Assembly: GCA_964586485.1 (NCBI GenBank)
Contig: CAZPII010000001.1
Location: forward strand, 2,334 to 66,333
Direction of reading: 5' to 3'
Length of the DNA stretch: 64,000 bases
Source of the DNA: an uncultured Atribacterota bacterium
Lineage (GTDB): Bacteria; Atribacterota; Phoenicimicrobiia; Phoenicimicrobiales; Stramentimicrobiaceae
Part shown: in pieces, positions 10,814 through 55,749 of the stretch
Layout: each line of letters opens with the position of its first letter
Position numbering within the stretch: the first letter of the stretch is position 1
Made by a program: the position numbers and the translations under genes
Notes under the pieces: generated by a model
Database searches by the model: none
Seen by the model: only the letters and a program-made list of their open reading frames with translations
What the model was told of the DNA's origin: nothing

Positions 10814-10814
10814 A

Positions 10815-12533: not shown

Positions 12534-12986
12534 ATGTCTTTAAATTCACTAGGCTATGAAATGATTGGTAGTAATGAATCAAATATAGCTGGTTTGGCCT
12601 CATTGCTATCTAAAGATCAACTCATTGAAGCTGAAATAGATCAAAATGGGGCTTCTATTCCAATTTGTCTATTCCCTCATTATGCCAAGATTGAAAGTGT
12701 AAAGCTTCTTGCCCTTGCTGAAAGCCATGATGCGAGTGTGCATAATTTAAAAGCAAACTGTTCAATTGACGGCAATGATTTAATTGATAGTGACAAATCA
12801 TTAAATACGGCCAATGGCTGGCAGGCAGATGCATTATTTGATTTAGGTGTAAATCAAAATTTAGATGTTAAACCTAATAGTGTCCTGAAACTTGATATTG
12901 AAAATGAAAATGGCACAACCGCAACAATAACAGGGTTACTTGTTTGTGTTAAATTCAGACATCCACTTAGCGAGTTTAAAAAATAA
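12534..12986 (+). CDS. hypothetical structural-module protein (150 aa)
   Basis: AAAGGAG RBS. Sits immediately upstream of the prohead protease. Confidence 0.5.
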   Translation: MSLNSLGYEMIGSNESNIAGLASLLSKDQLIEAEIDQNGASIPICLFPHYAKIESVKLLALAESHDASVHNLKANCSIDGNDLIDSDKSLNTANGWQADALFDLGVNQNLDVKPNSVLKLDIENENGTTATITGLLVCVKFRHPLSEFKK

Positions 12987-12988
12987 TT

Positions 12989-13477
12989 ATGTTAGAAGCA
13001 AAATGCACATCTTTATTTAAGTTTGGTCTTGTATCTGATTCTTTTTTTAGACAAGTTATGAAAAAAGAGTTTTCTCATATGAGAAAATTTGAAGTATCAG
13101 ATCAAGATCTTGAAAAAGGCATTATTTCTGGTATATTTAGCGCCTCCAATGTTATTGATGCTCATGGTGATGTTATTTCTAGTCAAGAATTAGAAAAAGC
13201 AGCTCATGATTTTATGTTGCGCGGTCAAAGAGGTTTGACCCTTGTAAAAGGCGGCAAACCCGGATTCGGACATAAAAAATCAATAGACGCCTATATTGTA
13301 GAGACTTGGATCGAACAAGATCAAGAAGATCCAGTTAGCTCTTTTGGCGAACCAAACCTTTTATGGAAAGGTAAAATAAAAATTAATGATCCAGAAATAA
13401 GATCAGAAATTAAAAAAGGTAATATTATTGGTTTTAGCATTGGAGGCTTCCATTATAGGATTTTAAGAGAACAGTAA
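12989..13477 (+). CDS. XkdF-like prohead protease (Peptidase_S78_2-type)
   Basis: VIDAHGDVISSQELEKAAHDFM and GFSIGG match the XkdF-family pattern. Positioned before the scaffold and capsid genes. Confidence 0.65.
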   Translation: MLEAKCTSLFKFGLVSDSFFRQVMKKEFSHMRKFEVSDQDLEKGIISGIFSASNVIDAHGDVISSQELEKAAHDFMLRGQRGLTLVKGGKPGFGHKKSIDAYIVETWIEQDQEDPVSSFGEPNLLWKGKIKINDPEIRSEIKKGNIIGFSIGGFHYRILREQ

Positions 13478-35907: not shown

Positions 35908-38550
35908 ATGACCCAAAGAGATTATCCAGATGGCTGGAGTAATAAAGGTGACAAAGGGCATTTAAAAGATGCTTATAATGAGTATAAAAATTATTATCGT
36001 GTTTTTCAAGAACATAGTCAGCCAGCTATAGAACAAGATGTAAACGAAGCCAAAAAGATAGAAGAAAATTTTTTTACAAGATTCCTTCATGATTTTTTTC
36101 CTAATTATTTTATAGGTGAATCATTTAAAATTGAAGCTAATGGTGTCGATAATGATTTTTCAATTCAAGGTGGCATAGGTTTTGAAGGTGTCGATTTTGA
36201 ATTTAATAACAGGGCATATATTCATGGTATGCCTGTTGTTATATGTGAAAACATTACATATAAAACACAAGACATTTCTCAGCCTGCATTAGCCCCGCCA
36301 CCTTCAGGCACGAGAGAAGATATAGTTTATATTGACGCTTGGTTAAAAGAAGTAGATTATACCGACGATGAAGACATAGAATATGAACCTGTCAATAAAG
36401 GTTTTACAACAAGATTAAAAATGATAGCAGAAATAAAAGTTGCTCAAGGCGGCAGGCCAGTAGAAAGATATATTGATTCAAATGGTTTAGAACACTATAC
36501 AGCTGTTATTGCTAAGCTAGAGCGTGATACAGGAAATTCAATTACTTCTGGTATGATAACTGATTTACGATCTAAAACTAATACCTTTGCTTATGTTCAA
36601 AGTTCTAATTCAGAGACATTTGCTTTATCTGACGGGTCTAGTTTATCGGTTAATATCAATGAGGCAGGCGTTCAAACCATAACATTTTTAGAAACAGATT
36701 TTAATGATATTGGCCTAGCAACAGCGGATGAAGTTGTTAAAGTTATATCAAGAGATTTAGTTGATGGTATAGCTTATAAAGATAAAGATGGAAAAATATT
36801 TATAAGATCTAATGATCATGGTATAAATTCATCTGTTGAAATAACAGGTGGCTCAGCAAACACTCAATTCGGTTTTTCAACAAGTTCTGTGTCTGGTGAA
36901 GACGGAAATCTTTTACCAACATTTTTTACACAGCAAGGTTTAGTAAAAGCTTTGGGTGATTCATTAATATCAGGTATTAGTGGCGAAGGTGATGCCGGGA
37001 CTTTTACAGAAACAAATCATTTAAAAATAGTTGGCGGAACCAACATATTAACAACACTGTCAAATGACGGTGATGACGGAAAGATTGAAATATCTGTAGA
37101 CGGCCTTGAGCAAGGTATATCAAATTTACATGCTGACGGAGGTATGGCTAATCCGGCAGCTAACGCTACAACACTAAGGATTTTAGGTGGAACAAATTGC
37201 GCCACAGAATTAACCCAGAATGATGATAATGATTTCACTTTAACTATTAATGCGACCGGTGGTGGCGGATTAGGTGGAAGTGGATCATATAAAAGAATAG
37301 ATAAAGTTTCATCAGATGGTGTTGATCAGGGCGATGGATATTTCAGATTTGATCTTGGGGTTGGTAATGAATATATGGTTGGGCAATCTAATCCTTGTCC
37401 ATTAATTGTTTTTCAAGGTGTTGATCATCTTCACGAAGGCGAGACAAAAGACTGGAAACCTGTTGGCGCCACTGGTGTGCCGTCATCCTTTGTTGATATC
37501 GCTGGCCCTATTAGTCCTAATAATAATTACGCTTTTTATGTTTTAATTGAGCAAGAGACAGGTATAAGTGGCTCTGGTAATACCGGAACATTTACTAATT
37601 GCAGTGATATTCAAGTTATTGGTGGTCAATCATTAAATGTTGTTGCTTCTGAACCTTCACCTGCTAATGGCAAATTTCAAATAGATGTTGTAGGCAGCCT
37701 TGTTGATGGTAGTGATGCTTCGTCTAAGCATCATCATAATTCACTTTATGCTACAGTTGGGCATACTCATTCTGAAATTAATGAAATGCAAAGTATACTT
37801 AGATATTACGCCAACAACATGAAATTATTTTTAGATGTAATGGATAGGCCGCTCGGTCCTTGGTCAACCCTAGGTTCCACAAGAGTATTAATTAGAGATA
37901 ATTATAATGAATATACGGTAAATGGCCTATATACTGGTGGTGATTATTATCTTAGAGGTTTAAATACAAATTTAGTATGGGATATATCTACTGTCAATGA
38001 CAGAGGGAGTTCACCAAAATACTGGGATCTGTATATAAGATGGGATGGTGGAAATATTGTTAAAGAATGGTCATATGCCGGTGATACACCTTATAGTACA
38101 AAATCAGGTGCTCCAGATGAATGGCTGTGTATAGGCAGTATTTATGGTATCAAAAATGGATCATCATTTGGTATTTTTGATGTTGATTCTATTTTTGATA
38201 AACAAGAAATTTGGTATAATCGCGAAACATCGTCGGCAGTTAATGATGTGATAGTAACAAAGGGGAATTTCGGCAAAAGATGTTTAGTTTATGCTAGCGC
38301 TTATATAAATGGATCTGGTTCGCAATTATTCCTGACATTAACTTTATGTGGCCGTCCATATTATCAACAAAGCTCCTCAAATCCCATAGGGCCGGCTCCT
38401 TTTGATCATGGCGGTTGTTCTATGGCGGCATTGGAATTTGCTCAAGGTACTCAAGGTACCATAGTTGCATATAGCATACTTACACAATACAAGTACGGCG
38501 CCAATATAGCGAGGGAGGGGGCGCTGGTTGTTTATAAAAAAGTAATATAA
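35908..38550 (+). CDS. tail fibre-like protein (880 aa)
   Basis: AAAGGAG RBS. Gly-rich linker GGGGLGGSG and His motifs SKHHHNSLYATVGHTHSEI. Carries the shared ~90-aa module at about 36616-36900. Confidence 0.55.
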   Translation: MTQRDYPDGWSNKGDKGHLKDAYNEYKNYYRVFQEHSQPAIEQDVNEAKKIEENFFTRFLHDFFPNYFIGESFKIEANGVDNDFSIQGGIGFEGVDFEFNNRAYIHGMPVVICENITYKTQDISQPALAPPPSGTREDIVYIDAWLKEVDYTDDEDIEYEPVNKGFTTRLKMIAEIKVAQGGRPVERYIDSNGLEHYTAVIAKLERDTGNSITSGMITDLRSKTNTFAYVQSSNSETFALSDGSSLSVNINEAGVQTITFLETDFNDIGLATADEVVKVISRDLVDGIAYKDKDGKIFIRSNDHGINSSVEITGGSANTQFGFSTSSVSGEDGNLLPTFFTQQGLVKALGDSLISGISGEGDAGTFTETNHLKIVGGTNILTTLSNDGDDGKIEISVDGLEQGISNLHADGGMANPAANATTLRILGGTNCATELTQNDDNDFTLTINATGGGGLGGSGSYKRIDKVSSDGVDQGDGYFRFDLGVGNEYMVGQSNPCPLIVFQGVDHLHEGETKDWKPVGATGVPSSFVDIAGPISPNNNYAFYVLIEQETGISGSGNTGTFTNCSDIQVIGGQSLNVVASEPSPANGKFQIDVVGSLVDGSDASSKHHHNSLYATVGHTHSEINEMQSILRYYANNMKLFLDVMDRPLGPWSTLGSTRVLIRDNYNEYTVNGLYTGGDYYLRGLNTNLVWDISTVNDRGSSPKYWDLYIRWDGGNIVKEWSYAGDTPYSTKSGAPDEWLCIGSIYGIKNGSSFGIFDVDSIFDKQEIWYNRETSSAVNDVIVTKGNFGKRCLVYASAYINGSGSQLFLTLTLCGRPYYQQSSSNPIGPAPFDHGGCSMAALEFAQGTQGTIVAYSILTQYKYGANIAREGALVVYKKVI

Positions 38551-38560: not shown

Positions 38561-39448
38561 ATGGGCGGTTCTTTTTCACAAAAAACAAATTTAGAAACAA
38601 TAAAAGATTCAGCATATATAGATGATTTTGATTCTACAAAATTTGATTCTGTTTTTAATGATGGGACAATAAGTGGATCCTCAGCGCATCATCATAATGA
38701 CCTATATATATCATCATCTGTTACTTATAATGATATGTTCTTAAATGAATTTGGTTTTACACCTAATTTATTTTTAGAAATAGGTGATTCTGGTGGTAAT
38801 ACAGGCAGTGATATTATTATTAATGCCAGTGTTGATAACAGTGTTTCAGTTAACATTAATGATACTCTATATACTAATGAATCACAGGTTGCATATTCTA
38901 TTTTTGGTTCTGGTTTAACAGTTGATAAATTTTATGACGTTTATGTCACTAATGATGGATCTAATTTTATAATTGATTTAAATTGTGTTGTTTTATCTGG
39001 TGACACGCCTTATCAATCGACTAATCCTGATCCTAATTTTTATACTAGAGTTGGATCTGCATTTATAACATCTGATATAGCCGGGACTGATCTGGCTATT
39101 TATTGTGCTGATACTGAAAACTCTAAAAGAGGTTATAGATGTTATCCTGAAAAAGTCAACGATGCGTCGAGAACATTAATTCCTGTTTTTAAACCAAGTA
39201 ATGTCTCAATGAACCTTTATGCTCCATCCGGTATAGACGATTTTGTTAGCTTAGAATATGTGATATCACCATATACATTTATTCTTTATTCTGATCCTGA
39301 TCTAACAAATGCTGATTCTGATAGCATATCATTTTATATTGATACACCGGGCCTATATGATGTTAATACTGAAATTAATGCTGGTAGTATTGATTATTCT
39401 TTGATAACAAACATAAATCCTCTAGTTATTAATAGTTATATAATTTAA
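38561..39448 (+). CDS. tail fibre-like protein (295 aa)
   Basis: AAGGAG RBS. SSAHHHNDLYISS motif shared with the upstream fibre. Confidence 0.4.
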   Translation: MGGSFSQKTNLETIKDSAYIDDFDSTKFDSVFNDGTISGSSAHHHNDLYISSSVTYNDMFLNEFGFTPNLFLEIGDSGGNTGSDIIINASVDNSVSVNINDTLYTNESQVAYSIFGSGLTVDKFYDVYVTNDGSNFIIDLNCVVLSGDTPYQSTNPDPNFYTRVGSAFITSDIAGTDLAIYCADTENSKRGYRCYPEKVNDASRTLIPVFKPSNVSMNLYAPSGIDDFVSLEYVISPYTFILYSDPDLTNADSDSISFYIDTPGLYDVNTEINAGSIDYSLITNINPLVINSYII

Positions 39449-40722: not shown

Positions 40723-43188
40723 ATGTCAAACAAAATCAATTTGCCAGAATTACCCAAACACTTGGGTTTTGGTGGAACAGCAATAGATAAGTTCGTACCG
40801 GTTTTTCTCCAAGAAATAAAAGATCAATTAGAAGGTTTTGATGTCAGTGTTAATCCTTTAAATTTCAAAGGTGGCTGGGACGCGGACGCCAACGATCCTG
40901 AATTATCTGATGATGGCGGGGGCGGAGATGCGAACGATTTTTATATTGTAGAAACAGCTGGAAGCTCAGAGATTGATGGTATTAATGATTGGCAATTAAA
41001 AGATTGGATTATTAATACTGGCGAAAAATGGGTTAAAATTGATAATACGGATTTAGTTGTTTCTATATGTGACAAGACTGGTGTTGTTACACTTGATGGT
41101 GAAGACATTGATTATGATAACACTACAAGCGGCTTGACGGCAGAAGAAGTGCAGGCGGCCATTGATGAAATTGTTACTTTGATTCCTTCAGTTTCTAATT
41201 TTATTTCACAAGAGCTGATCGATGCAAAAGGCGATCTACTTGTTGGTTCATCTGATAATACTGTTGCCAAATTATCAGCCGGATCAAATGGTCAATTTTT
41301 ACAATCTGACGACACACAAGTAAATGGTGTTAAATGGGCCGACGTATCTTCCACTGAGCAAACGTATTATGTTGCTAATAATGGTGCTGAATTAGATGCC
41401 GCTATTGTTGCGCTGAATTCTGTTGGTGGTGGTATAATTCAATTAGCCGGACCAGATATATCATATTCACCCGCTGATAATAGAAATATTAGTAATATTC
41501 ATATTATCGGTAGTACAACTGGCATCGCAATGACAAAAATAACATTCAATAATGCTAATTATTGGTATGGTGATAATATTAATTTATCTCATATTAGAAT
41601 AGATCCATATTTGACAAATCCAGTTATTAAGTTGGTTTCTGCAAATGCAGCATTTATGCGTCTGGATAAAATTCAACATAGAGGAAGTCCAGTTGAATTT
41701 CAAATTGACGCCGATATTCCGGCATTATATATGTGGGCTGAACAGGTTGTTAGTTGCAAATTTAAAAATTCATCAAATACTACAGCTTATCTTTTTGACA
41801 ACTCTAATATAACATTTGAAGGTGGAACAGTTTATATTGATGATACAAGCACATCATCTGGCCAAACTACTCAGAATTTAATGTCGGTTGCAGAAAAAAA
41901 TAGTTATAATAATTCAGGCTCTGGTTTATCAGCTATAAATGTTCAGAACGCTATTGATGAAGTTAACACAAGGGTTACAGTTTTAGGTGCAAGAACATAT
42001 GAGGATCAGGTTTTACATGATGTAAAAGCTCTTGGCGATGCCACGCCTGATGTGGTTTTGACCGGAACTGCCGCTGGTGATCTTCAGACTGCTTTAGACA
42101 ATTTAAATGAAGGCGAAATCCTTCAGATTGATACAAGCGCTGTTTATTCTCCTATTTTGTTACCAGCAACAAACGGGATTAAAGTAAAAGTTGGCGACGG
42201 CTTTTTACCGTCAATAACAGGTGCAAATTGTATTAAGATTCCAGACGGATTAACAAACCAAATCATTTCCGGTATACTTATTGAAAATTGTACAACCGCA
42301 AGGCAAAATGAGTATGGTGCCGGTATTGCTCTGGAACATCAAGCAAAATTTGATAATTTAATATTTTGGAATATAACGATTCAAAATGTTCTATCTGGCT
42401 CTGGCGTTATGTTGAGCTACCATCAATCAATAAGCGGTGACAATTATGCTACGGCAAGTCTTTTATCTGAAATGTCAACTAAGTTAGCTTTTGTTGATTG
42501 TTTCTTGCATAAAGCTGTTAACGAAAAAATAGAAGGCGCAAGTATAGCTGTTAGAGGTATTAATAAACCTTATTTCCACAAAGTCCATTGTGATTCACAA
42601 GATCAGGGGAGAGGAATATCTCTACAAAATTGTATAAATATATTACTTGATGGAAATAAAATCATTAATACTCAAGATGGAAATGGCGGTGAAGCAATCA
42701 AAGTAGATGCCATTGGTTCACCTTCCGGATATACAAATACTGGAATTATTAAAAATAATATTTGCGCTTACGCAATTGAAGGTATTGATTTAGATGATAT
42801 GGTTGATGCTTTAGTTTATAACAATACCACTTGGAATTGTACAGGAGATGGTATATCATTTGATGACAGTGCCGTATCTGGCGTTGCATTAAATAATATT
42901 TGTTTTAATTCTGAAAATGGTATTAGAATTGAATCAGGTGCAATTGATGTATTTTTGAAGAAAAATGTTTGTTTTAATAACACGACTAATTATAATGTTC
43001 CAGTTGCTTATACGTTATGCCCGTCTAATTCAAATACAATGATGGATATGTTTAATGGTTCAAATTCTATACCATTTGTTGCCGATACGCCGGCAAATTG
43101 GGCAACATCAGTTCCATTAAACGCGCTTGATGCAATTAATAGAATTGCTAATGATTTAGCTACATTAGCAGGTGCTCCAATATCATAA
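40723..43188 (+). CDS. tail fibre/spike with right-handed beta-helix (pectate-lyase-like) region
   Basis: GAGGAG RBS. Repeated N-rich rungs (NNICAYAIEGIDLDD, NNTTWNCTGDGISFDD, NNICFNSENGIRIESG, KNVCFNNT) are typical of PbH1 repeats. Confidence 0.6.
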   Translation: MSNKINLPELPKHLGFGGTAIDKFVPVFLQEIKDQLEGFDVSVNPLNFKGGWDADANDPELSDDGGGGDANDFYIVETAGSSEIDGINDWQLKDWIINTGEKWVKIDNTDLVVSICDKTGVVTLDGEDIDYDNTTSGLTAEEVQAAIDEIVTLIPSVSNFISQELIDAKGDLLVGSSDNTVAKLSAGSNGQFLQSDDTQVNGVKWADVSSTEQTYYVANNGAELDAAIVALNSVGGGIIQLAGPDISYSPADNRNISNIHIIGSTTGIAMTKITFNNANYWYGDNINLSHIRIDPYLTNPVIKLVSANAAFMRLDKIQHRGSPVEFQIDADIPALYMWAEQVVSCKFKNSSNTTAYLFDNSNITFEGGTVYIDDTSTSSGQTTQNLMSVAEKNSYNNSGSGLSAINVQNAIDEVNTRVTVLGARTYEDQVLHDVKALGDATPDVVLTGTAAGDLQTALDNLNEGEILQIDTSAVYSPILLPATNGIKVKVGDGFLPSITGANCIKIPDGLTNQIISGILIENCTTARQNEYGAGIALEHQAKFDNLIFWNITIQNVLSGSGVMLSYHQSISGDNYATASLLSEMSTKLAFVDCFLHKAVNEKIEGASIAVRGINKPYFHKVHCDSQDQGRGISLQNCINILLDGNKIINTQDGNGGEAIKVDAIGSPSGYTNTGIIKNNICAYAIEGIDLDDMVDALVYNNTTWNCTGDGISFDDSAVSGVALNNICFNSENGIRIESGAIDVFLKKNVCFNNTTNYNVPVAYTLCPSNSNTMMDMFNGSNSIPFVADTPANWATSVPLNALDAINRIANDLATLAGAPIS

Positions 43189-45061: not shown

Positions 45062-46828
45062 ATGGCTGTTGTTGAATTACATTATTTAGGTGTTCCTGTA
45101 GCTCATAAAGAGGGCACAACAAACTCGACTTTTAAAGTTGGAGATAATGTAACATTAGGTCAGGGTTCATATGTTGATGCCACTGGCCAAATAGATTTTG
45201 GAACTACAGATTTAGTCACATCTGGAGATGTGACACTCACGGGCGCGGTTGATTTATCAGGTGCCACATCTGTTTCAGTTCCTACACCTACGTCAAGTGG
45301 TCATGCTGCAAATAAAGGTTATGTAGATAATGTAGCATCTAATATTTCAAACAAAGGTTCTGTTTTAGCGTATCAAGATACTCCGCCGGTTTCGCCAAAT
45401 GATGGTGATAAATACTTAGTCAAGGCCACTGCTACTGGAGATTGGGCGGGTCAAGAAGGTAAAATTGCTACATATGATAGTGACACAACATCTTGGTCAT
45501 TTAGCAGCGCTCCTGTTGAGGGCTGGGTTGTTTTCAACCAAGACGATTCTGATTCGATTTATGGCGATAGACAGTTAGTTTATACTGATTCTGGTTGGGA
45601 TACGTTCTCAAGTACAATTTATCATGAAAATCTTCCAGATGTTGATAGCGGAACTTATAAACATTTAACCGCTACACAGAGAACAGCTTTAACTGGTGGT
45701 GCATCAACTGACGCTGACGCTCAACATACCCATGATAGTAAGGCTGATAAAGTATCTTCACCTACAGCGGGTAATTTTGCCGGATTAGATGTTAATGGTA
45801 ATCTAACTGATTCCGGTTCTTCTTCTAGTGATTTCGCCTCGGCGTCGCATAGTCAAAACGATTCAACTATTAATATTAGCGGTTCACATGATGCATTATT
45901 AAGTGCAGCATCAACATTAGATGATGCTTTAGTTGTGTTAGATGATTTAGATGATTCAGATTTAAATTTATCAGGGTCACATGATGGTAATTTAAGTGCT
46001 TCCACTACTTTAGCTGATGCTATGGCGGTTTTAGATGATTTATCAACTGGAACATCAACGGCTAGTGAAACCTCAACTGTAGTTACAAGTTTTGATGGTT
46101 TATTATCTGCTTCTGACGATGATGTTCAAAAAGCTTTAGATACATTAGATGATCATGGAGTGACAGACCATAAGGCATCAGGTTTAACAGCGGGTCATGT
46201 ATTGAGAGCAACCGGTGCCGATTCCATGGCATTTGGCGCAATTCAAGCCTCTGATTTACCTTCAAATATAGATGCTTTAAAAATTGGTTCTGGTGATGTT
46301 ACAAATACAGAATATGGTTATTTAGCTAATGTAACTAGTGATATTCAAGATCAGATAGATGGTAAAGCAGATTCTTCTCACAATCATGATACGGATTATA
46401 TCAGTATAATATCAAGCCCTACAGCTGGTAATGCTGTGAAACAAACAGCAGGTGGTGAACTGGAAGATGCTGGTTTTGCAATTGATGAATATGAAGGTTC
46501 ACTTACTTTAAAAGAAAAGACTGTTTCTAATACTACACTTGATCTCGGATCATCAGCAAATAAAAATGTTGGTTTTGTTTCTGCCTATGCTGACACAGCT
46601 AATGTAACAATTACATTGCCTGATTTAGCAACAAATGTTGGAAAACAATATGTCATTGATGCCGCAAGTATAACAGGTGCGTATAAGGTTAATGTTCAAA
46701 GAGCTGGAACTGATACTTTATATGGCGGTTATTCACAGGCACAATTAGGAACTACTGATCATAGTATCAGATTAATAGCTGGTAAAAATAGCTGGAAATT
46801 TGATGCCGTTGGTGCAACTTTAAGTTAA
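45062..46828 (+). CDS. tail fibre protein with DUF2793-like segment and ~30-aa repeats
   Basis: AANKGYVDN; PPVSPNDGDKYLVKATATGDWAGQEGKIATYDSDTTSWSF is DUF2793-like. Three repeats end in ..LDDALVVLDDL, ..LADAMAVLDDL and ..VQKALDTLDDH. Confidence 0.6.
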   Translation: MAVVELHYLGVPVAHKEGTTNSTFKVGDNVTLGQGSYVDATGQIDFGTTDLVTSGDVTLTGAVDLSGATSVSVPTPTSSGHAANKGYVDNVASNISNKGSVLAYQDTPPVSPNDGDKYLVKATATGDWAGQEGKIATYDSDTTSWSFSSAPVEGWVVFNQDDSDSIYGDRQLVYTDSGWDTFSSTIYHENLPDVDSGTYKHLTATQRTALTGGASTDADAQHTHDSKADKVSSPTAGNFAGLDVNGNLTDSGSSSSDFASASHSQNDSTINISGSHDALLSAASTLDDALVVLDDLDDSDLNLSGSHDGNLSASTTLADAMAVLDDLSTGTSTASETSTVVTSFDGLLSASDDDVQKALDTLDDHGVTDHKASGLTAGHVLRATGADSMAFGAIQASDLPSNIDALKIGSGDVTNTEYGYLANVTSDIQDQIDGKADSSHNHDTDYISIISSPTAGNAVKQTAGGELEDAGFAIDEYEGSLTLKEKTVSNTTLDLGSSANKNVGFVSAYADTANVTITLPDLATNVGKQYVIDAASITGAYKVNVQRAGTDTLYGGYSQAQLGTTDHSIRLIAGKNSWKFDAVGATLS

Positions 46829-46844
46829 TTTTTGATTATATAAG

Positions 46845-46892
46845 AAGTGGCCGGTGAAAAATAAAAATTTTGCTGGCCACTTTATGTTTTTT
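46845..46892 (+). terminator. rho-independent terminator
   Basis: Stem aagtggccgg / ctggccactt (10 bp including one G-U) with an 18-nt loop, then tatgtttttt. TATAAT follows at 46897-46902. Confidence 0.6.
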
Positions 46893-46919
46893 CTTATATA
46901 ATATTTTAGTGAGGAAAAC

Positions 46920-47405
46920 ATGTCTGTAAATCATATTTATCCGGGTATAATAGAGCCAACATTTAACAGGGTTAAAGTTGCCCAATCAACACCTGTTGAT
47001 AGTAATGAATTGGCAACAAAATCTTATGTTGATTCACAAAGTGGCGGTGGGTCTTCAAGTTTGTCTTATTCTAGCACATCTGATTCCAACGGCATATCGC
47101 AATTAGATGGTGTTTATGTTGATTCTAATGGAAAATTGGCAACTGGTAGTAGCTCTACGGATTCAGAATCTAAAATAATAGGCATAGCCAATTCTGCTAT
47201 ATCTGGCGATGCAAGTGGGTCAATTATAACTTTTGGTTTAATATCTGGATTATCAGGGTTAACACAAGGCAGTTATTATTATTTACAATCAGATGGGACT
47301 ATAAGCGTAACACCACCGTCTTCGGGTTATGTGGTAGAAATTGGACAAGCATTGAAAACAACTGAATTATTTATTAATATACAAAGAAGAGTTAAATTAG
47401 CATAA
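46920..47405 (+). CDS. small fibre-like protein (161 aa)
   Basis: GAGGAAAA RBS. ELATKSYVDSQSGGG motif; Ser/Gly-rich. Confidence 0.4.
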   Translation: MSVNHIYPGIIEPTFNRVKVAQSTPVDSNELATKSYVDSQSGGGSSSLSYSSTSDSNGISQLDGVYVDSNGKLATGSSSTDSESKIIGIANSAISGDASGSIITFGLISGLSGLTQGSYYYLQSDGTISVTPPSSGYVVEIGQALKTTELFINIQRRVKLA

Positions 47406-48322
47406 TGGCTGATAGGAAACCTTTAATATTATATAATGGAAAAACAAGAGAAACAGAGCCAGATGAATTTATAATAGCTGATTCTATTTCTTCAGGTTTG
47501 GAAGTTAGTGTTTTAAAATCAGTCAATAAATTTATGACAGATGTTAAAAAAATAACATTTGTTGGATCAAATTTAACTGTTTCGGAAAATATTACAAATC
47601 AAGCCGATATTATATTATCAACAACTAATTCTTGGGGCTGTTTGCTTGAATCGGCACCTAGAATATTTACAGGCTCTAGTCAAAAAGAAGTTACAATAGA
47701 AGATTTTTATTTGAGATTACCAGATGGTGCTCATTTAAAAAATATCGATCAAATAAAATTAGATATAAGTAATTCTGATCACAGGTATTTAAGTGTACCA
47801 GAGCAATCAGATACTTGGTATTATATTTATGTCACAGATGATTTTTCTAGTTATCCAGCTTTTGGTTTTTTTGACACTGTTCCGCCAAATGAACTTGGAG
47901 AGCATTCTGTTATTAATGCTAGATTTATAGGTTCTGTTTTTAATAATAATAATTTAGATTTTTTAAGATTTGATAAAAGTAATAATATAGTGCATTTAAC
48001 AGAAGATAAAAGTGTTGTGCAAATATTATCTTCTGGTTTAGAAAGTTCTTTTTCATACCAAGATATTAAAAAATATGTTCCAAAAACAGCCGGTAGTGTT
48101 ATCATAAATAATAATTTAAGCTCAGGTTATTTAGATATATTTGAAACATTCGGTGGTAGAAATTCAAATTTAAATGATATATATGATAATCAGATGATAA
48201 TACCGCTGGATGGAAATTTTCAACTAGGCTGTAGATATTCTGGCTCTCAAGGAACAGAAACTTTATACTTTTATGGTTATATCGAAAATATATTTATTGT
48301 GAAAACGGATGTAATTTATTAA
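47405..48322 (+). CDS. fibre-family paralog A (no LamG insert)
   Basis: TAATG overlap. Shares N-terminal (KPLILYNGKTRE) and C-terminal (WYYIYVTDD, ARFIGSV, LYFYGYIENI) motifs with the next two genes. Confidence 0.45.
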   Translation: MADRKPLILYNGKTRETEPDEFIIADSISSGLEVSVLKSVNKFMTDVKKITFVGSNLTVSENITNQADIILSTTNSWGCLLESAPRIFTGSSQKEVTIEDFYLRLPDGAHLKNIDQIKLDISNSDHRYLSVPEQSDTWYYIYVTDDFSSYPAFGFFDTVPPNELGEHSVINARFIGSVFNNNNLDFLRFDKSNNIVHLTEDKSVVQILSSGLESSFSYQDIKKYVPKTAGSVIINNNLSSGYLDIFETFGGRNSNLNDIYDNQMIIPLDGNFQLGCRYSGSQGTETLYFYGYIENIFIVKTDVIY

Positions 48323-51300
48323 TGTATAAGCCTATAGTAAGTAATAATGGGAATTTAGAAGAATTACAATCAGGTGATACCCTTTACGGGGTAGCATCTG
48401 GTGATGTTGTTCTAGATATAAAAGATGAAAACACTTTGAAAAAAGAAGGTGTTAAAAATCTTGTTTTTTCTGGTGGGGTATTTTTAGAGGATGCTGGAGG
48501 CAATGAATTAAAAATATCCTCTAGTAATGGCGGTGCAACAAGCTTTAGCCCTAGAATGCCTGTTATTTCAGGTTTAAGAAAGGCAGAGATAACTTCTAGC
48601 AATTCAGAGAATTATTCAATTTCAACCGGAAATAACGATAAAATAAAATTGAATATCGATAAATGTGGTAGTGTTGAGGTTACATTAACTTCAGGCTCAA
48701 GAACCGCTTCTCAAATATGTAATGATATTAATTTAGCATTAAATTCTTCTACTAATTATCATGATTCATATACATATGCGATTGATGATAATTCTAAAGT
48801 TAAACTAAGATCGCTTCGTTATATGAAGAACCCTGAGATTATCATAGAATCAATATCAAATGATGCCTATACTACCTTGGGTTTTTCAACTGGCACTACA
48901 GATTCTTGGAAGCAAAATGAATTAAAAGTTCACCCTTATGATTTATTGCTGCCAGATGGAACGATTCAAAAAGAAACCACTCAGAAAACATTAGATATTA
49001 CCAATGATGATGATTTAGAGCAACAAAGTCTAACAGCTAGTTCAAGTCAGAAGATTTTTAATTTTTCTGACATGAAGTTAGAAACATATGAAAAACAATA
49101 CACAACAATAACATATCCTCATATCCATTTAAGATTCAATAATAGCTTTTTCGATTTGAGCGACAATAATCATATAGTTCAAACAATAACTGGTGTAACA
49201 TTCAATTCATCAGTGAAAAAATTAGGCTCTCATAGTGCAGATTTTTCAGGCTCTTCTGCTTATCTTGATTTTGGCAATATAGCCGATTTAGAAAGAGATG
49301 AAGAGTTTTCATTTGAAGGCTGGGTAAGATTTGATTCAGTTGGCTCAGCACAAGGTATCATATCAAAAAGACTTGGTGGGGCAACTTATCAGGGATATTA
49401 TTTTGGTATTGATGGAAATAATAAGTTAACTTTCATATTAGCCAATAACCTTGGTGCTGGCCAATATCTTCACATTACTACCACATCTACTTATTCGGCC
49501 AATACTTGGTATCATTTTGTATTAACTTATGATGGCTCTGGGAATGCCAGTGGAGCAAAAATATATGTTAATAATACACTGCAAAATGTAACAATCAATA
49601 AAAATACATTGTCTGGTGATATATCTAATAGTGCCAATCTTATCATTGGAAACAATCAAGGACTGTCAATTGGTATTGATGGAAAACTTGATTCTATAAT
49701 AATCCATGGTAGTGAATTAGCAACATTAGAAATTAATGATAGATATAGAAATGGTCAATATTCTTGCCATGGGCTAGACGCGGACAAATGCTTACTTAAC
49801 CTAACTTGCTATAATAGTGTTGATGATTCAAGTTATAGAGAAAAGTCAACAACTGGAAACAATATATCATATTCAGGAACAGCACCTGATAGATATGCTG
49901 TTTTCAATGGGACATCATCAAAAATAGATCTTGGTAATGATTCATCATTATTATTTGAAAAAGATGAAGAGTTTTCATTTTCGTACTGGTTTAATCCTAG
50001 TGATGCCAGTTCAAGTTATAGAACTATTTTTAGCTCTGTTGATTCGTCAGGGGATAAAGGCATTATCGTTCGGCATCAGAATGGAAAAATTGAAGTTCAT
50101 TTAGTTAATACTTCGGGATCAAATAGCATAGTAATTTCAACTACTAATAATGTTCTCGGGACATCAAGTTTTAAACATGTTTTTATTACTTATGATGGTT
50201 CTGGGAGTGCCAATGGAGCAAAAATATATGTTAATAATGTTGAAATAACAGACATAACAACTACTTATGATAATTTAAGTGCCACCATTGTTAATAGTTC
50301 AAATAATATTAACATAGGATATGATAATAATTCAAACTACTTATATGGAAACCTAAGAGATCTTTTGATCTTTAGTGAGAAATTATCAACTTCACAAAAA
50401 GAAGAAATATACAATTCAGGGGTAAAGAAATCTTATGATTATATAAGTTATAATCCAGCTGAATTAGTATTACATCTGAATAATACTAATAATGATTCGT
50501 CACAGAATAATTATGTTGGCACGTCAACTAATATAACATATTCATCATCTGTGAAGAAATTAGGAAGTCATTCTGCAAGTTTCAATGGGATATCGTCAAA
50601 AATAGATTATAATGATGTATGTTCGTTTGAAAAAGATAAACCTTTTTCTTTTGAATTTTGGGTTTATGTAGATAGCTCAGGATCTGGTGCAAGGCCAATA
50701 TTATCGAAAATAAATTCTTCAGGTTCAAATGAAGGGTACGAAATAGAAATAAACTCTTCTGGAGGATTGCAATTCACAATTGTAGATATATCAACCTCGA
50801 TGTATGTTTATACTTCACCTGTTTCTACTGATACATTAATACATGCGGTTGTTTCTTATGATGGATCATCGAATAGAAGTGGTATGAAAATATATATTAA
50901 TAGCGTAGCGCAAAGCTTGACAACTGGCGGAAGCTCAAGTTTAAGCAATACAATAGTATCAACAGCACCATTAATTGTTGGAAGTCAATCAACTAATTGG
51001 TTTGATGGTTATATCGATGAATTGATTATTTATTCAGAAGAAATTTCTCAAGCTGATGTAAATAATAGATATAATTCAGGAAATGGTGAAGAGTATAATT
51101 TTGGCTCCGAAGAAATACCTGTATTTAAGGTTCTAGTCAATTCAGTACAGCAAGAATTGAATAATGATTATGTACTTAATTCAGAAACCCAAATTGAATT
51201 TTATTCAGGGCTTTCCTCCAGTGATATAGTAGAAGCTATAATAAAAATTGAAGGAAACAGGTGGTATTATCTCTATATCACTGATATATCATTATTTTCA

Positions 51301-51774
51301 ACTAGAAAAGTTTTTGCTTCCAATCAAAGGCCAAATTGGTTTGGTGAACATCAGAAATCAAATTTTAACGGCCGATATATAGGGTCGTTTAAAACAGATG
51401 GTCTCACAGAAATAAGACCATTTATAAAATTTGGAGATGAAGTTTTACAAGAAGAAGAAATTATATATAGTGGGACCATTACTACAGATGGTTCTAATCT
51501 AAACCTTAATGATTACTTACCTCCAACAACAAATTTAGCTAAACTATCGGCATTATCATCGACGGTTAACTCAAGGCCATACGTTTGGTCGAGGTTTGAT
51601 AGCAATTTCTTATGTTCTCTTGCTGGTAAATGCAAAGGAATTAATTATAGAGATCTTATCTATTTAACGGATGAAGAAAGAAATATCTTTCTTCAAAGAG
51701 AAGACCAAAATAATACTATAAATGTTTATTCACATGGTTATATGGAAAACGTATTAGAGCCAATTGGAGCTTAA
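48322..51774 (+). CDS. fibre-family paralog B with three LamG (Laminin_G_3/concanavalin-like) domains
   Basis: Three copies of the pattern SA(D/S)F(S/N)G.S..ID...(E/K)FSF..W......W.H...TYDGSG.A.G.KIYVN.....G..D.(L/I)II...(L/I)S...I..RYNSG, at about 49120-51110. Confidence 0.75.
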   Translation: MYKPIVSNNGNLEELQSGDTLYGVASGDVVLDIKDENTLKKEGVKNLVFSGGVFLEDAGGNELKISSSNGGATSFSPRMPVISGLRKAEITSSNSENYSISTGNNDKIKLNIDKCGSVEVTLTSGSRTASQICNDINLALNSSTNYHDSYTYAIDDNSKVKLRSLRYMKNPEIIIESISNDAYTTLGFSTGTTDSWKQNELKVHPYDLLLPDGTIQKETTQKTLDITNDDDLEQQSLTASSSQKIFNFSDMKLETYEKQYTTITYPHIHLRFNNSFFDLSDNNHIVQTITGVTFNSSVKKLGSHSADFSGSSAYLDFGNIADLERDEEFSFEGWVRFDSVGSAQGIISKRLGGATYQGYYFGIDGNNKLTFILANNLGAGQYLHITTTSTYSANTWYHFVLTYDGSGNASGAKIYVNNTLQNVTINKNTLSGDISNSANLIIGNNQGLSIGIDGKLDSIIIHGSELATLEINDRYRNGQYSCHGLDADKCLLNLTCYNSVDDSSYREKSTTGNNISYSGTAPDRYAVFNGTSSKIDLGNDSSLLFEKDEEFSFSYWFNPSDASSSYRTIFSSVDSSGDKGIIVRHQNGKIEVHLVNTSGSNSIVISTTNNVLGTSSFKHVFITYDGSGSANGAKIYVNNVEITDITTTYDNLSATIVNSSNNINIGYDNNSNYLYGNLRDLLIFSEKLSTSQKEEIYNSGVKKSYDYISYNPAELVLHLNNTNNDSSQNNYVGTSTNITYSSSVKKLGSHSASFNGISSKIDYNDVCSFEKDKPFSFEFWVYVDSSGSGARPILSKINSSGSNEGYEIEINSSGGLQFTIVDISTSMYVYTSPVSTDTLIHAVVSYDGSSNRSGMKIYINSVAQSLTTGGSSSLSNTIVSTAPLIVGSQSTNWFDGYIDELIIYSEEISQADVNNRYNSGNGEEYNFGSEEIPVFKVLVNSVQQELNNDYVLNSETQIEFYSGLSSSDIVEAIIKIEGNRWYYLYITDISLFSTRKVFASNQRPNWFGEHQKSNFNGRYIGSFKTDGLTEIRPFIKFGDEVLQEEEIIYSGTITTDGSNLNLNDYLPPTTNLAKLSALSSTVNSRPYVWSRFDSNFLCSLAGKCKGINYRDLIYLTDEERNIFLQREDQNNTINVYSHGYMENVLEPIGA

Positions 51775-51776
51775 AA

Positions 51777-53399
51777 ATGGTAGAAAAAAGAGCCACAATA
51801 TTAAATAATGGGAATTTAGAAGAAATTAGTGATAGTGATACTCTCACTAATATTGGTTCTCTTATGAATGATATAAATGACGGAACGACAACCGTTAATA
51901 ACCCTGAAGCGACTAATTTTAAAGGTTCTAATATTGAGGCTTCTCCGCATTCAAATTCAAATACTGCCGTCATAGAATTTAAATCATCTGGATCTAATAC
52001 AAAGTTTATTCAAACTAATCCAAAACTAAAATCATTTGAGATAGATAGTGATCTTAAATTGGTTGAGCTGTTAACGCAGTTTGAAAACAATTTAAATGAT
52101 GATAGTAATAATAGTTATACATTATCCAGTAATAATGTTAGCTTCTCGTCTTCAACTTATAAAATAGGTAGTTATAGTGCAAGTTTTAATGGTTCGAACA
52201 GTTATATTAACTGTGGCAACTCTTTTAACTTAAATTTTGAAAGAGATGAGGAGTTTTCGTTTGAGTTCTGGGTTTATCTCAGTTCAAAAAATGCAAATCA
52301 AATGTTCTTTACAAAAAGAAAATCATCCGCTAATAACTGGACGGGTGTGTCAATATACGTTGGTAGCGATAACACTGTTAGATTTTTATTATTAGCGGAT
52401 TCAGGCACAGGTAACTATATTCAAGCTAAAACTTCAGCTACACTAGACATAGGTCAATGGCACCATATTGTTGGCACATACAATGGGTCGAGTTTGCTTA
52501 GTGGCACAAAAATTTATATTAATGGGTCAGAGGCTACTTTATCAGGAAGTATAGATAACCTTTCTTCTAATATAAGCAACTCGGAGAATTTTTATGTTGG
52601 TGGAGATTATGTTAATAATATAAACTATTTAGATGGATTTTTAGATAGGTTTGTTGTTTATGAAAAAATATTGACAGCAGATGAAATTTCAAAACATTAT
52701 AATTCAGGTAATGGATACAGTGATGTTTATAATGAAAACATTATAAAAGTAACTCCATTTAAGTGCATGTTACCTGATGAAAGCGTTTTGGCCCAGAGTT
52801 CTATTCAATATCTTAATTTAGAAGATGCCAATGATTTTGAATCATCATATACATTGACCGGTGATCAATGGTTATATTTATATGCAACTGACGAAACCTC
52901 TTGGTCAACTAAGAAATTATTTTTCAGCACAACAAAACCTTATGCAAGGGGGTTTCATCCAACAAAAAACGCCAAATATATTGGATCAATTAGATTAAAT
53001 TCCAATATAAAAATTGAGAAGTTTAGAAAAGAAGGTTGTAATGTATTATATCAAGTTTCTCAAATTGCTTATACTAATACTACAACCTCTACTTCATTAG
53101 TTACAGTTGATCTAAGTGATCATATTCCAGAAACAACAAATGTAGCATTTGCTTTCAGTTATCAATTAACTATAGATGATACATATGTTTCATATATCAG
53201 AGGAAAAAAACAAGATAATACAGCGAAAGATTGGCCAGATGAATCGGGTCAGGGAAAAAGATATTATCCAGCAATAGTAAAAACAAATGATGATAGAGAA
53301 GTTTATCATAATTCTAATACAACTAGAACAGAAGATACAAAGCTTTATGTTTTAGGTTATATAGAGAACGTAGATAATCCATTACAGAACGTAGCATAG
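51777..53399 (+). CDS. fibre-family paralog C with one LamG domain
   Basis: SASFNGSNSYINCGN...EEFSFEFWVY...WHHIVGTYNGSSLLSGTKIYINGSE...LDRFVVYEKILTADEISKHYNSGNG. N- and C-terminal motifs are shared with paralogs A and B. Confidence 0.7.
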   Translation: MVEKRATILNNGNLEEISDSDTLTNIGSLMNDINDGTTTVNNPEATNFKGSNIEASPHSNSNTAVIEFKSSGSNTKFIQTNPKLKSFEIDSDLKLVELLTQFENNLNDDSNNSYTLSSNNVSFSSSTYKIGSYSASFNGSNSYINCGNSFNLNFERDEEFSFEFWVYLSSKNANQMFFTKRKSSANNWTGVSIYVGSDNTVRFLLLADSGTGNYIQAKTSATLDIGQWHHIVGTYNGSSLLSGTKIYINGSEATLSGSIDNLSSNISNSENFYVGGDYVNNINYLDGFLDRFVVYEKILTADEISKHYNSGNGYSDVYNENIIKVTPFKCMLPDESVLAQSSIQYLNLEDANDFESSYTLTGDQWLYLYATDETSWSTKKLFFSTTKPYARGFHPTKNAKYIGSIRLNSNIKIEKFRKEGCNVLYQVSQIAYTNTTTSTSLVTVDLSDHIPETTNVAFAFSYQLTIDDTYVSYIRGKKQDNTAKDWPDESGQGKRYYPAIVKTNDDREVYHNSNTTRTEDTKLYVLGYIENVDNPLQNVA

Positions 53400-53405
53400 G
53401 TGAGT

Positions 53406-53819
53406 ATGTATTTATTTTTTAATAAGTCCGATAATATAATACAAGCGTTTGGTATTGTTGATTTTGAATCAACTGGAGAATCAGGGTTTAATTCATTACT
53501 TCATAAGCAATACAAGGGAAATTTTAAAATACCTCAAATATTTGGCGACTTAAGAGTGCAGGAAATAACAACTGAACAGGATCAGGATACTTTTACTCTT
53601 GATTTTGATTATAAAATAAATAAAAATAATATATGTATTGAAAAACAAGTAGATGGAGTTTTTCAAATAATTGATCCTATTGATTATCAGGAGTTTGATA
53701 TAAATACAATAGTTTTTGAAACAGCTTTTGATTCTGGTGTTGTTTTAAGGTTTTCATCTAATGAAATTATAGAATATATTTTTGATGAAAACTCTGAAAC
53801 TTTTAGCGTTTCTGATTAG
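53406..53819 (+). CDS. hypothetical protein (137 aa)
   Basis: ATG 53406; the track start is GTG 53400. Confidence 0.4.
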   Translation: MYLFFNKSDNIIQAFGIVDFESTGESGFNSLLHKQYKGNFKIPQIFGDLRVQEITTEQDQDTFTLDFDYKINKNNICIEKQVDGVFQIIDPIDYQEFDINTIVFETAFDSGVVLRFSSNEIIEYIFDENSETFSVSD

Positions 53820-55722: not shown

Positions 55723-55749
55723 GACACTTTTTTTAAAGTGTCTTTTTTT
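55723..55749 (+). terminator. rho-independent terminator closing the late block
   Basis: gacacttt tttt aaagtgtc (8-bp stem) followed by T7. TATAAT follows at 55751-55756. Confidence 0.8.

What the first reader, a model, noticed from the sequence alone, without database searches (positions are those of the whole stretch)
47405..53399. Three consecutive paralogous fibre genes forming a 0 / 3 / 1 LamG-insertion series
ORFs 47405..48322 (305 aa), 48322..51774 (1150 aa) and 51777..53399 (540 aa) share an N-terminal anchor motif: KPLILYNGKTRETEPDEFI / KPIVSNNGNLEELQSGDTL / RATILNNGNLEEISDSDTL. They also share a ~200-aa C-terminal domain with collinear motifs: WYYIYVTDD / WYYLYITDI / WLYLYATDE; ARFIGSV / GRYIGSF / AKYIGSI; LYFYGYIENI / VYSHGYMENV / LYVLGYIENV. 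Between these ends the three genes carry zero, three and one Laminin_G_3-type (concanavalin-like lectin) domains. This looks like one scaffold with a variable lectin cargo, arisen by tandem gene duplication plus intragenic domain amplification. Nucleotide-level repeats such as ggagcaaaaatatatgttaataat occur at about 49551 and about 50215. Weaker versions of the C-terminal motifs also appear in 35908..38550 (YWDLYIRWDG, EWLCIGSIYG) and 38561..39448 (FYDVYVTNDG, TRVGSAFITSD). I could not match the conserved N- and C-terminal modules to a named family.
Basis: seen in the sequence. Interest (0 to 1): 0.6.

Follow-up and report, generated by a model that had tools for sequence, protein, structure and literature searches.

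The report
Three phage tail-fibre tip paralogues
Three neighbouring genes of an uncultured contractile-tailed phage encode host-attachment proteins that share a short plug and a common tip module, and carry zero, three or one sugar-binding-type domains in between; this is a clean but fairly ordinary case of how phages mix and match attachment parts.

Summary
ORFs 47405-48322, 48322-51774 and 51777-53399 are real, adjacent and translationally coupled. They carry 0, 3 and 1 Laminin_G_3 domains (Pfam, 184 and 90 bits). They share a ~220-aa C-terminal domain (P0002/P0003 E 2e-39, P0001/P0003 3e-10) and a ~60-aa N-terminal module.

The C-terminal module can now be placed. It belongs to a very large, mostly unnamed family of phage fibre-tip domains: 14,686 clusters at 50% identity. 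It always lies at the C-terminus of fibres. The first half of the domain is related to the second (beta-sandwich) domain of the Bordetella phage receptor-binding protein Mtd (PF21916). The second half is hypervariable. Other phages carry 4-9 tandem copies.

The best reading is three receptor-binding proteins with a common anchor, different heads and optional LamG glycan-binding modules.

Two claims are corrected:
- The two "weaker" candidates (35908-38550, 38561-39448) do not match this domain, though they are related to each other.
- P0002 is not a simple insertion variant. It keeps a vestigial start of the tip domain upstream of its LamG array.

The duplications are old (20-40% identity). 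Variation in LamG copy number among relatives could not be tested. The scan has noted similar swappable lectin-headed fibre cassettes on other DNA.

The parts
46844..46902 (+). Terminator-like hairpin (46844-46883, 16 pairs) overlapping a promoter-like site (46874-46902). It marks the start of the transcription unit that holds the three genes.
   Evidence: Consensus scan. The next strong terminator-like site is at 55723-55742. These are consensus matches only.
46920..47405 (+). 161-aa protein with a tail-fibre-type N-terminal motif (NELATKSYVDS). It is translationally coupled to P0001 and is a candidate adaptor or stalk.
   Evidence: phrog_4368, 3.5e-10. Its C-terminus and its position directly upstream of the P0001 orthologue are kept in L005. 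The adaptor role is inferred.
47405..48322 (+). P0001, 305 aa: N-anchor (aa 1-60, 47405-47584), linker, then tip domain (aa 87-305, 47663-48319). No LamG domain.
   Evidence: AF2 model has pLDDT 85-95 over aa 81-300 and is all-beta. Orthologue P0230 is 41% identical.
48322..48489 (+). P0002 N-anchor (aa 1-56).
   Evidence: Five-sequence alignment and HMM. Orthologue P0238 is 51% identical.
48574..48873 (+). P0002 aa ~85-184: small accessory domain (TA.QIC.DIN ... LGF). It also occurs in other phage tail proteins.
   Evidence: IMG/VR loci L007-L010. No Pfam family.
48874..49071 (+). P0002 aa 185-250: vestigial second copy of the start of the tip domain (ELKVHPYDLLLPDGT...LDITNDDD). It decays before the WYY strand.
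   Evidence: BLASTP 5e-5 and 2e-4. 27.1 bits against at most 12.7 in 1000 shuffles.
49150..51096 (+). P0002 LamG array: three Laminin_G_3 domains (aa 277-482, 500-705, 723-925), period about 663-672 nt.
   Evidence: Pairwise identity is 32-40%.
51097..51771 (+). P0002 tip domain (aa 926-1150).
   Evidence: (9.2e-57).
51777..51944 (+). P0003 N-anchor (aa 1-56).
52089..52724 (+). P0003 single Laminin_G_3 domain (aa 105-316).
   Evidence: (2.8e-25).
52728..53396 (+). P0003 tip domain (aa 318-540).
   Evidence: (5.6e-60).
53400..53819 (+). 139-aa gene abutting the stop of P0003. Function unknown; it is the last gene before the lysis block.
   Evidence: no family hit.

Best explanation
The three genes encode three receptor-binding tail proteins (short fibres or fibre tips) of a ~110-kb uncultured P2-type-baseplate myovirus.

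Each protein has three kinds of part:
1. A shared ~60-aa N-terminal module. It most likely plugs the protein into the same kind of docking site on the baseplate or on an adaptor.
2. An optional middle part: nothing in P0001; one LamG in P0003; a small domain, a vestigial neck start and three LamG domains in P0002.
3. A ~220-aa distal tip. Its first half is a conserved Mtd-second-domain-like beta-sandwich 'neck'. Its second half is a divergent beta-rich 'head', closed by a conserved last strand (GY[IM]EN[IV]).

The divergent heads are inferred to recognise different host surface receptors. The LamG (concanavalin-like) modules are inferred to add carbohydrate binding, avidity or reach.

Shown here: domain content, paralogy, family membership of the tip, its terminal position in fibres, and tandem arrays in other phages. 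Inferred: virion location, oligomeric state, docking partner and ligands.
For: Context:
- The genes lie at the end of the tail module, after sheath, tape measure, M23 hub, gpJ-like wedge, gpI-like protein, a beta-helix tailspike and a DUF2793 protein, and before the lysis genes.

Domains:
- LamG count is 0/3/1.
- The tip domain is shared.
- The N-anchor occurs only in these three ORFs of the contig and in the orthologues.

Family:
- Profile A2 finds 14,686 clusters at E<=1e-3.
- In longer members the domain is C-terminal, after collagen repeats, DUF2793 or Ig-like repeats.
- 19 of 56 members pass PF21916 'Mtd second domain'.
- hhalign places the conserved core on Mtd residues 73-149.

Structure:
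- The AF2 model of the tip is confident.
- It matches predicted structures of the Xanthomonas phage XAJ2 DUF2793 protein (7.9e-12) and the Pseudomonas phage PPpW-3 'tail-collar fibre' (2.4e-7).
- GenBank phages annotate relatives as tail fibre proteins.

Neck/head pattern:
- Seven paralogues in one IMG/VR phage are 71% identical in the first half and 18% in the second.
- Arrays of 4-9 copies follow a long fibre gene.

Literature:
- DUF2793 tail proteins with variable C-termini are virion components. In DMS3 and JBD26 their authors conclude that they bind the pilus (bioRxiv 10.1101/150227).
Against: - There is no direct evidence that the proteins are in the virion or that they bind anything.
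- The three window proteins do not reach any Pfam threshold for PF21916 themselves. The link is transitive, and the direct hhalign to Mtd is marginal (E 0.048).
- No solved structure matches the tip (best PDB hit 2e-3, TM 0.2).
- Only a monomer could be modelled, and the N-anchor is of low confidence (pLDDT 47-69).
- LamG_3 belongs to a lectin/glucanase superfamily, so a non-lectin role is possible.
- Apart from the two window proteins, no LamG domain was detected in the family members that were screened. There is therefore no precedent that clarifies the role of this fusion.
Confidence: 0.7

Rival explanations
1. The three proteins are serial segments of one composite fibre, joined end to end like T4 gp34-37, rather than parallel alternative receptor-binding proteins.
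For: The genes are adjacent and translationally coupled in one operon, together with a small fibre-like gene upstream.
Against: All three share the same N-terminal module and the same terminal tip domain, so they would occupy equivalent positions. In other family members the domain is always the C-terminal end of the protein. Stand-alone ~250-aa copies exist in arrays.
Confidence: 0.08
2. The LamG domains are not lectins. They are structural spacers, or glycan-degrading modules of the concanavalin-like glucanase type. In that case the 0/3/1 series sets reach or enzymatic activity rather than binding.
For: PF13385 is described as 'Concanavalin A-like lectin/glucanases superfamily'. The three in-line copies would lengthen the protein markedly.
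Against: No glycoside-hydrolase family was hit by Pfam or PHROGs. The phage has a separate beta-helix tailspike candidate at 40723-43188. Catalytic residues were not examined here.
Confidence: 0.15
3. Only one of the three is a functional virion protein at a time. The others serve mainly as a reservoir of alternative heads for recombinational tip exchange.
For: Other phages carry one long fibre ending in this domain followed by 4-9 short stand-alone copies with a highly conserved first half (71% identity), which would favour homologous exchange. P0002 looks like the product of such a graft.
Against: In the window all three have intact ORFs, their own N-anchor and coupled or Shine-Dalgarno-preceded starts. 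Their first halves are only ~26% identical, too low for frequent homologous recombination. The P0001 and P0002 orthologues are kept in a relative.
Confidence: 0.07

Closest known systems
Mtd (major tropism determinant) of Bordetella phage BPP-1: beta-prism, beta-sandwich, C-type-lectin head (Pfam PF21916 = its second domain)
   Same: Both are terminal receptor-binding proteins of a tail fibre. A conserved beta-sandwich 'neck' precedes a variable receptor-binding head. Family members of the window's tip domain pass PF21916, and the conserved core aligns to Mtd residues 73-149.
   Different: The head is not a C-type-lectin fold. There is no variable/template repeat pair, and no reverse transcriptase anywhere in the genome, so this is not a DGR target. 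The window proteins themselves do not reach the PF21916 threshold. LamG modules are absent from Mtd.
DUF2793 (PF10983) tail proteins, e.g. Pseudomonas phages DMS3 gp49 and JBD26 gp59 (bioRxiv 10.1101/150227), and the Xanthomonas phage XAJ2 DUF2793 protein
   Same: Both have a conserved N-terminal attachment part plus a divergent C-terminal receptor-binding part. The XAJ2 protein's predicted structure matches the window tip domain (7.9e-12, 228 columns, rmsd 3.7). Family member P0171 combines DUF2793 with this tip.
   Different: P0001-P0003 use a different ~60-aa anchor, not DUF2793. DUF2793 sits in the separate 588-aa neighbour at 45062-46828. DMS3 and JBD26 are siphoviruses, and it was not checked whether their C-terminal parts belong to this tip family.
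Modular receptor-binding proteins with conserved shoulder/neck and exchangeable head, and carbohydrate-binding-module decorations of tail proteins, in lactococcal and streptococcal siphophages (from general knowledge, not tested here)
   Same: The same design logic: conserved attachment and neck, swappable head, optional carbohydrate-binding modules, several paralogues per genome.
   Different: No sequence or fold relationship was shown here. The host range and phage type differ. LamG_3 domains lie in line upstream of the tip rather than on Dit/Tal proteins.
Bdellovibrio bacteriovorus MAT fibre Bd2133 tip (PDB 8OND; PMC10769870)
   Same: It is the best PDB Foldseek hit (E 2.1e-3, probability 0.84). 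It is a chimeric trimeric fibre with an exchangeable beta-sandwich tip. A Bdellovibrionota MAG carries three tandem cellular paralogues of the window's tip domain.
   Different: TM-score is only ~0.2 and rmsd 34 A, so no real fold match is shown. There is no sequence similarity.

Membership tests
Laminin_G_3 (PF13385), concanavalin-like lectin/glucanase superfamily | Score above the Pfam gathering threshold (27.6 bits) over the full 151-position model | tested here: met
   P0002 scores 184.4 bits with 3 stretches. P0003 scores 89.7 bits with 1 stretch covering model positions 1-151. P0001 has none.
Laminin_G_3 (PF13385) | Carbohydrate or other ligand binding by the domain | not testable with these tools
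   This needs glycan arrays or binding assays with recombinant domains.
Phage fibre-tip family defined here by profile A2/A4 (overlaps phrog_17105, phrog_34307, phrog_19294) | Full-length match to the ~230-position profile with the conserved motifs (TWYYIY, [KR]R.[IV]G., final GY..[DN][IL] strand) | tested here: met
   P0003 5.6e-60, P0001 1.4e-58, P0002 9.2e-57, each covering profile positions 19/25-249. The three window proteins are rows of profile A2, so these scores are partly self-matches. The independent support is the pairwise BLASTP matches and the 14,686 other clusters hit.
Phage fibre-tip family (A2/A4) | Position at the C-terminal end of a tail-fibre-type protein in a tail gene module | tested here: met
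Mtd second domain (PF21916) | Score above the Pfam gathering threshold (24.6 bits) | tested here: not met
   P0001-P0003 have no hit at E<=0.1. Four family members tested individually score 27-32 bits, and 19 of 56 members hit at E<=1e-3. hhalign of A4 against Mtd gives E 0.048 over Mtd 73-149. The homology is transitive only.
DGR target proteins (Mtd-type) | C-type-lectin fold head with a variable repeat, a cognate template repeat and a reverse transcriptase nearby | tested here: not met
   No RVT_1 match in the whole assembly, which includes the 110-kb phage contig. No long direct repeat of that kind lies in the region.
DUF2793 (PF10983) tail proteins | N-terminal DUF2793 domain | tested here: not met
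   No hit in P0001-P0003. It is present in the neighbour 45062-46828 at aa 105-165, 1.9e-12.

The most novel reading that the evidence does not exclude
The Mtd-neck-plus-variable-head module would be a major, structurally unsolved class of phage receptor-binding tip: about 14,700 clusters at 50% identity and no PDB match. Phages, and some predatory bacteria, would deploy it as plug-in cassettes. In this phage a dedicated 60-aa plug would let three different heads occupy the same docking site, so that one virion, or a mixed virion population, carries several specificities. The rare in-line LamG triplet would act as a glycan-scanning arm upstream of the protein-specific head.
Probability: 0.3. 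Interest if true: 0.5.

Novelty: new member of a known kind. Interest (0 to 1): 0.33.

Why it matters
The practical value is in annotation. A ~220-aa domain with no Pfam model for its full length can now be recognised as a fibre tip with a conserved neck and a variable head. PHROGs label its families mostly 'unknown function'. No structure has been solved, yet it occurs in about 14,700 protein clusters, and many phages hold it as tandem arrays. That helps host-range prediction for uncultured phages and nominates a good target for structure determination. The specific 0/3/1 LamG series illustrates modular evolution of receptor-binding proteins and includes a visible recombination scar in P0002. 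It does not reveal a new kind of system.

Tried and rejected
Searches that gave nothing useful:
- tblastn of P0001 and P0003 against GenBank phages found only weak LamG hits, or nothing.
- Word-indexed searches with the P0003 tip and with P0005 found only the queries themselves.
- IMG/VR scans with P0001 and P0003 found nothing.
- The metagenome scan gave only one distant relative, L006. The GTDB genome scan gave none. Variation in LamG copy number among close relatives therefore could not be examined.
- The only close relative, L005, is a 1.5-kb contig that breaks off inside the P0002 orthologue.
- An IMG/VR scan with the P0002 N-terminus retrieved only proteins that share its small accessory domain.
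- PDB sequence searches with profiles A2 and A4 gave no hit.
- Foldseek against the PDB gave nothing at E<=1e-3.

Ideas tested and dropped:
- Membership of 35908-38550 and 38561-39448 in the tip family. hhalign and HMM tests were all non-significant, and the AF2 model of P0005 was unusable (pLDDT 27.9). It is rejected on present evidence.
- DGR involvement, suggested by the Mtd link. It is rejected because there is no reverse transcriptase.
- Acquisition of the phage LamG domains from the binned genome's own giant LamG protein. It is rejected because identity is only 24%.

Full report
**Setting.** The window is bases 2334-66333 of contig C1 of a 2.0-Mb, 290-contig metagenome-assembled genome. 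C1 is 109,699 bp at 28.9% G+C, against 34.8% for the whole bin. Its first 50 bases recur at its end. It is therefore most likely a complete phage genome binned with a cellular genome.

All genes in the region lie on the + strand. PHROGs and Pfam identify the following:
- a major head protein (14626)
- a tail sheath (19221)
- a tape measure (22938)
- a hub with an M23 peptidase (27023)
- a gpJ/gp6-like wedge (30930)
- a Tail_P2_I protein with a long extension (32390)
- a beta-helix tailspike candidate (40723), followed by a patatin gene (43188)
- a 588-aa DUF2793 protein (45062)

This is a contractile-tailed phage with a P2-type baseplate. It has no close cultured relative: the sheath is at most 33% identical over 42% of its length to anything in GenBank phages.

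**The observation.** The three ORFs are exactly as described.
- P0001 and P0002 start on TAATG overlaps with the preceding stop. P0003 starts 2 nt after the stop of P0002, behind a GGAG.
- A 16-pair terminator-like hairpin lies at 46844-46883 and a promoter-like site at 46874-46902, just upstream of gene 46920. The next strong terminator-like site is at 55723. So the 161-aa gene, the three paralogues, a 139-aa gene and the lysis genes look like one unit. This rests on consensus matches only.
- Pfam finds Laminin_G_3 three times in P0002 (1.9e-54), once in P0003 (2.8e-25) and not at all in P0001. A whole-genome scan finds exactly these four copies on the phage contig.
- BLASTP gives P0002 vs P0003 at 2e-39 over 425 collinear residues (third LamG plus C-terminal domain), P0001 vs P0003 at 3e-10, and P0001 vs P0002 at 9e-6.
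- The 24-nt repeat is exact at 49552 and 50215, with none expected by chance. It is the core of a 63-nt patch that is 87% identical between LamG1 and LamG2. Those two domains are otherwise only 32% identical in protein.

**The N-terminal module.** Pairwise, the N-terminal motif is weak: 0.003 for P0002/P0003 and 0.68 for P0001/P0002.
- A 1.5-kb contig from another sample (L005, Logan SRR15425350) carries an orthologue of P0001 (P0230, 41% identical). It is preceded by the conserved C-terminus of the 161-aa protein. It is followed by the start of a P0002 orthologue (P0238, 51% identical).
- With these, the first ~60 residues of all five proteins align. The alignment covers the K-P-x-[IVL]...NG.[LI].E[LI]...D..[LI] hairpin and a second block, [VT][KE]K[IL].F.GS.
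- An HMM of this module finds only the three ORFs on the whole contig. It also finds one further family member, P0149, in which the motif is followed directly by the tip domain.
- In the AlphaFold model this part forms a short hairpin and a helix at low confidence. That would fit a segment that folds on assembly.

**What the C-terminal domain is.** The window proteins give no Pfam or PHROG hit for it and no GenBank phage hit.
- An IMG/VR scan with the three-sequence alignment found a 156-kb viral contig (L001/G001). It carries seven stand-alone ~250-aa paralogues, plus two more copies inside longer frames, nine in all. Two LamG-ending proteins are interleaved with them.
- A profile of the ten sequences (A2) was run against 1.84 billion representative proteins. 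It gave 14,686 hits at E<=1e-3, 7,757 at 1e-10 and 414 at 1e-30. The three window proteins score 1e-57 to 1e-60 over the whole profile, though they are themselves rows of it.
- In longer members the domain is at the C-terminal end. It follows collagen repeats (PF01391), DUF2793 (PF10983) or long runs of Ig-like repeats. Some proteins carry two to four copies.
- Nineteen of 56 members pass Pfam PF21916, 'Mtd second domain', with model positions ~5-79 of 115 on the conserved core ...V.I..G....DDG....S.ITVDIT.SGANGLDTGSE...TWYYIW.
- hhalign of the 106-sequence alignment against BPP-1 Mtd itself aligns this core and the following PSGYT.KR.VG motif to Mtd residues 73-149. Significance is marginal (E 0.048).
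- PHROGs places family members in phrog_17105 and phrog_34307 (unknown function) and phrog_19294 (tail fiber protein).
- GenBank phages with the domain include Xanthomonas phage XAJ2, Microcystis phages MaAM05 and Mwe-JY13, Burkholderia phage FLC9 and Pseudomonas phage vB_PsaM_M1. They annotate it as tail fibre or hypothetical.

**Structure.**
- With the 106-row alignment, AlphaFold2 models residues 81-300 of P0001 as an all-beta domain of about 17 strands, at pLDDT mostly 85-95.
- Foldseek finds nothing in the PDB at E<=1e-3. The best hit is the Bdellovibrio Bd2133 fibre tip, 8OND, at 2e-3 and TM 0.2. The remaining hits are generic jelly-roll or sandwich proteins.
- Against predicted viral structures, Foldseek matches the XAJ2 DUF2793 protein (7.9e-12, 228 columns, rmsd 3.7), several uncultured Caudovirales proteins, and the PPpW-3 'tail-collar fibre' (2.4e-7).
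- The full tip fold therefore has no solved representative that these tools could find.

**Neck and head.**
- Among the seven G001 paralogues, the first half of the domain is 71% identical and the second half 18%.
- In the window the values are 26% and 18%, with the last strand (GY[IM]EN[IV]) at 50%.
- A second phage contig (L012, 103.5 kb) has a 910-aa fibre ending in the domain, followed by four stand-alone ~251-aa copies.
- A conserved neck, a hypervariable head and tandem arrays are the familiar signature of receptor-binding cassettes.
- DUF2793 tail proteins with variable C-termini are virion components. In DMS3 and JBD26 their authors conclude that they are the pilus-binding parts (10.1101/150227).

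**History of the three genes.**
- In a maximum-likelihood tree of 86 family domains, the three window tips and P0230 form one clade (SH-aLRT 95). P0001+P0230 (97) and P0002+P0003 are the two pairs. The tool warns of long branches and of shared skewed composition, so this fits duplication within the lineage but does not prove it.
- The four LamG domains are 32-40% identical to one another with no clear sub-grouping. They are less similar to the LamG domains of G001 (26-27%), of cyanophages (26-29%) and of the bin's own giant LamG protein on contig C94 (24%).
- The duplications are old. The relative in L005 already has both a P0001-like and a P0002-like gene.
- P0002 is not simply P0001 with inserts. 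After its anchor it has an extra ~100-aa domain that recurs in tail proteins of other phages.
- It then has a vestigial copy of the first ~60 residues of the tip domain (ELKVHPYDLLLPDGT...LDITNDDD). This scores 27.1 bits against a profile of the other copies, with at most 12.7 in 1000 shuffles. It decays before the WYY strand.
- Only then come the three LamG domains and a complete tip that is collinear with the LamG+tip of P0003.
- The simplest reading is that a [LamG + tip] block of the P0003 type was grafted by recombination into a P0001-type gene inside its neck, and that the LamG domain was then amplified.

**The two 'weaker' candidates.**
- The proteins at 35908-38550 and 38561-39448 are related to each other: BLASTP 4.6e-6, and 29% identity over ~290 aligned residues including an HHHN.LY motif.
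- They do not match the tip family. hhalign gives E 0.19, 0.27 and 0.12. The 106-sequence HMM gives E 0.4-0.5 in a 19-protein search.
- No homologues could be collected, and the structure model was unusable (pLDDT 27.9).
- The motif resemblance (FYDVYVTNDG, TRVGSAF) remains a visual impression only.

**Mechanism.** The best-supported account is three parallel receptor-binding proteins that use a common plug, different heads and optional LamG modules. Confidence is about 0.7.
- Shown: the gene structure, the domain content, the paralogy, the family and its terminal position in fibres, the neck/head conservation pattern, and the absence of a diversity-generating retroelement (no reverse transcriptase).
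- Inferred: virion incorporation, trimeric state, the docking partner (the co-transcribed 161-aa protein or the baseplate), and the ligands of the heads and the LamG domains.
- Rivals: a serial composite fibre; LamG as spacer or enzyme; a reservoir of heads for exchange. Each is weighed in its own section of this report.

**Novelty and limits.**
- Modular receptor-binding proteins with swappable heads and added carbohydrate-binding modules are well known. This scan has also noted similar lectin-headed fibre cassettes on other DNA.
- What is new is modest. The tip module is placed in a very large, structurally unsolved family with an Mtd-like neck. Apart from the two window proteins, no LamG domain was detected in the family members that were screened. 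P0002 carries a visible recombination scar.
- Variation in LamG copy number among relatives could not be tested, because only one truncated relative was found.

Noticed in passing
window 35908-38550 and 38561-39448: The 880-aa and 295-aa proteins share a ~290-aa C-terminal region (29% identity; BLASTP 4.6e-6; HHHN.LY motif). They form a second, separate pair of fibre-tip paralogues at the P2 H/G position. They have no detectable homologues elsewhere by the word-indexed search.
   Followed up: partly
window 45062-46828: The 588-aa protein carries DUF2793 (PF10983, aa 105-165, 1.9e-12), the attachment domain of DMS3 gp49-type tail proteins. A strong terminator-like hairpin follows at 46844-46883.
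   Followed up: partly
G000 contig C1 (whole, 109,699 bp): The contig holding the window has 28.9% G+C against 34.8% for the bin, and its first 50 bases recur at its end. It is probably a complete phage genome binned into a cellular MAG.
   Followed up: partly
G000 contig C94:400-6543: The bin contains an open frame of at least 2181 aa with at least seven Laminin_G_3 domains. These are only ~24% identical to the phage LamG domains. It may be a giant surface protein of the putative host.
   Followed up: no
L001/G001 (IMGVR_UViG_3300022188_000006) and L012 (JGI 3300018080 contig, 103.5 kb), 7243-13033: Other phages carry a long fibre ending in the tip domain, followed by 4-9 stand-alone ~250-aa copies. 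The first half is conserved (71% identity) and the second half hypervariable (18%). How anchor-less stand-alone tips would be used is unexplained; attachment or a recombination reservoir are both possible.
   Followed up: partly
L011 (NCBI GCA_964358645.1, Bdellovibrionota MAG) 6715-9772: Three tandem 316-332-aa paralogues of the tip domain have signal-peptide-like N-termini and sit among cellular genes (N-acyltransferase, S8 and C25 peptidases, radical SAM). This may be cellular use of a phage fibre tip by a predatory-bacterium lineage.
   Followed up: partly
window 49513-49575 vs 50176-50238: A 63-nt patch is 87% identical, with a 24-nt exact core, between LamG1 and LamG2 of P0002. The two domains are otherwise only 32% identical in protein. 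This could be local gene conversion or strong codon-level constraint on the core strand.
   Followed up: no
window 48574-48873 (P0002 aa ~85-184): A small domain (TA.QIC.DIN ... LGF) with no Pfam family recurs in ~770-aa tail-region proteins of four IMG/VR contigs (L007-L010).
   Followed up: partly
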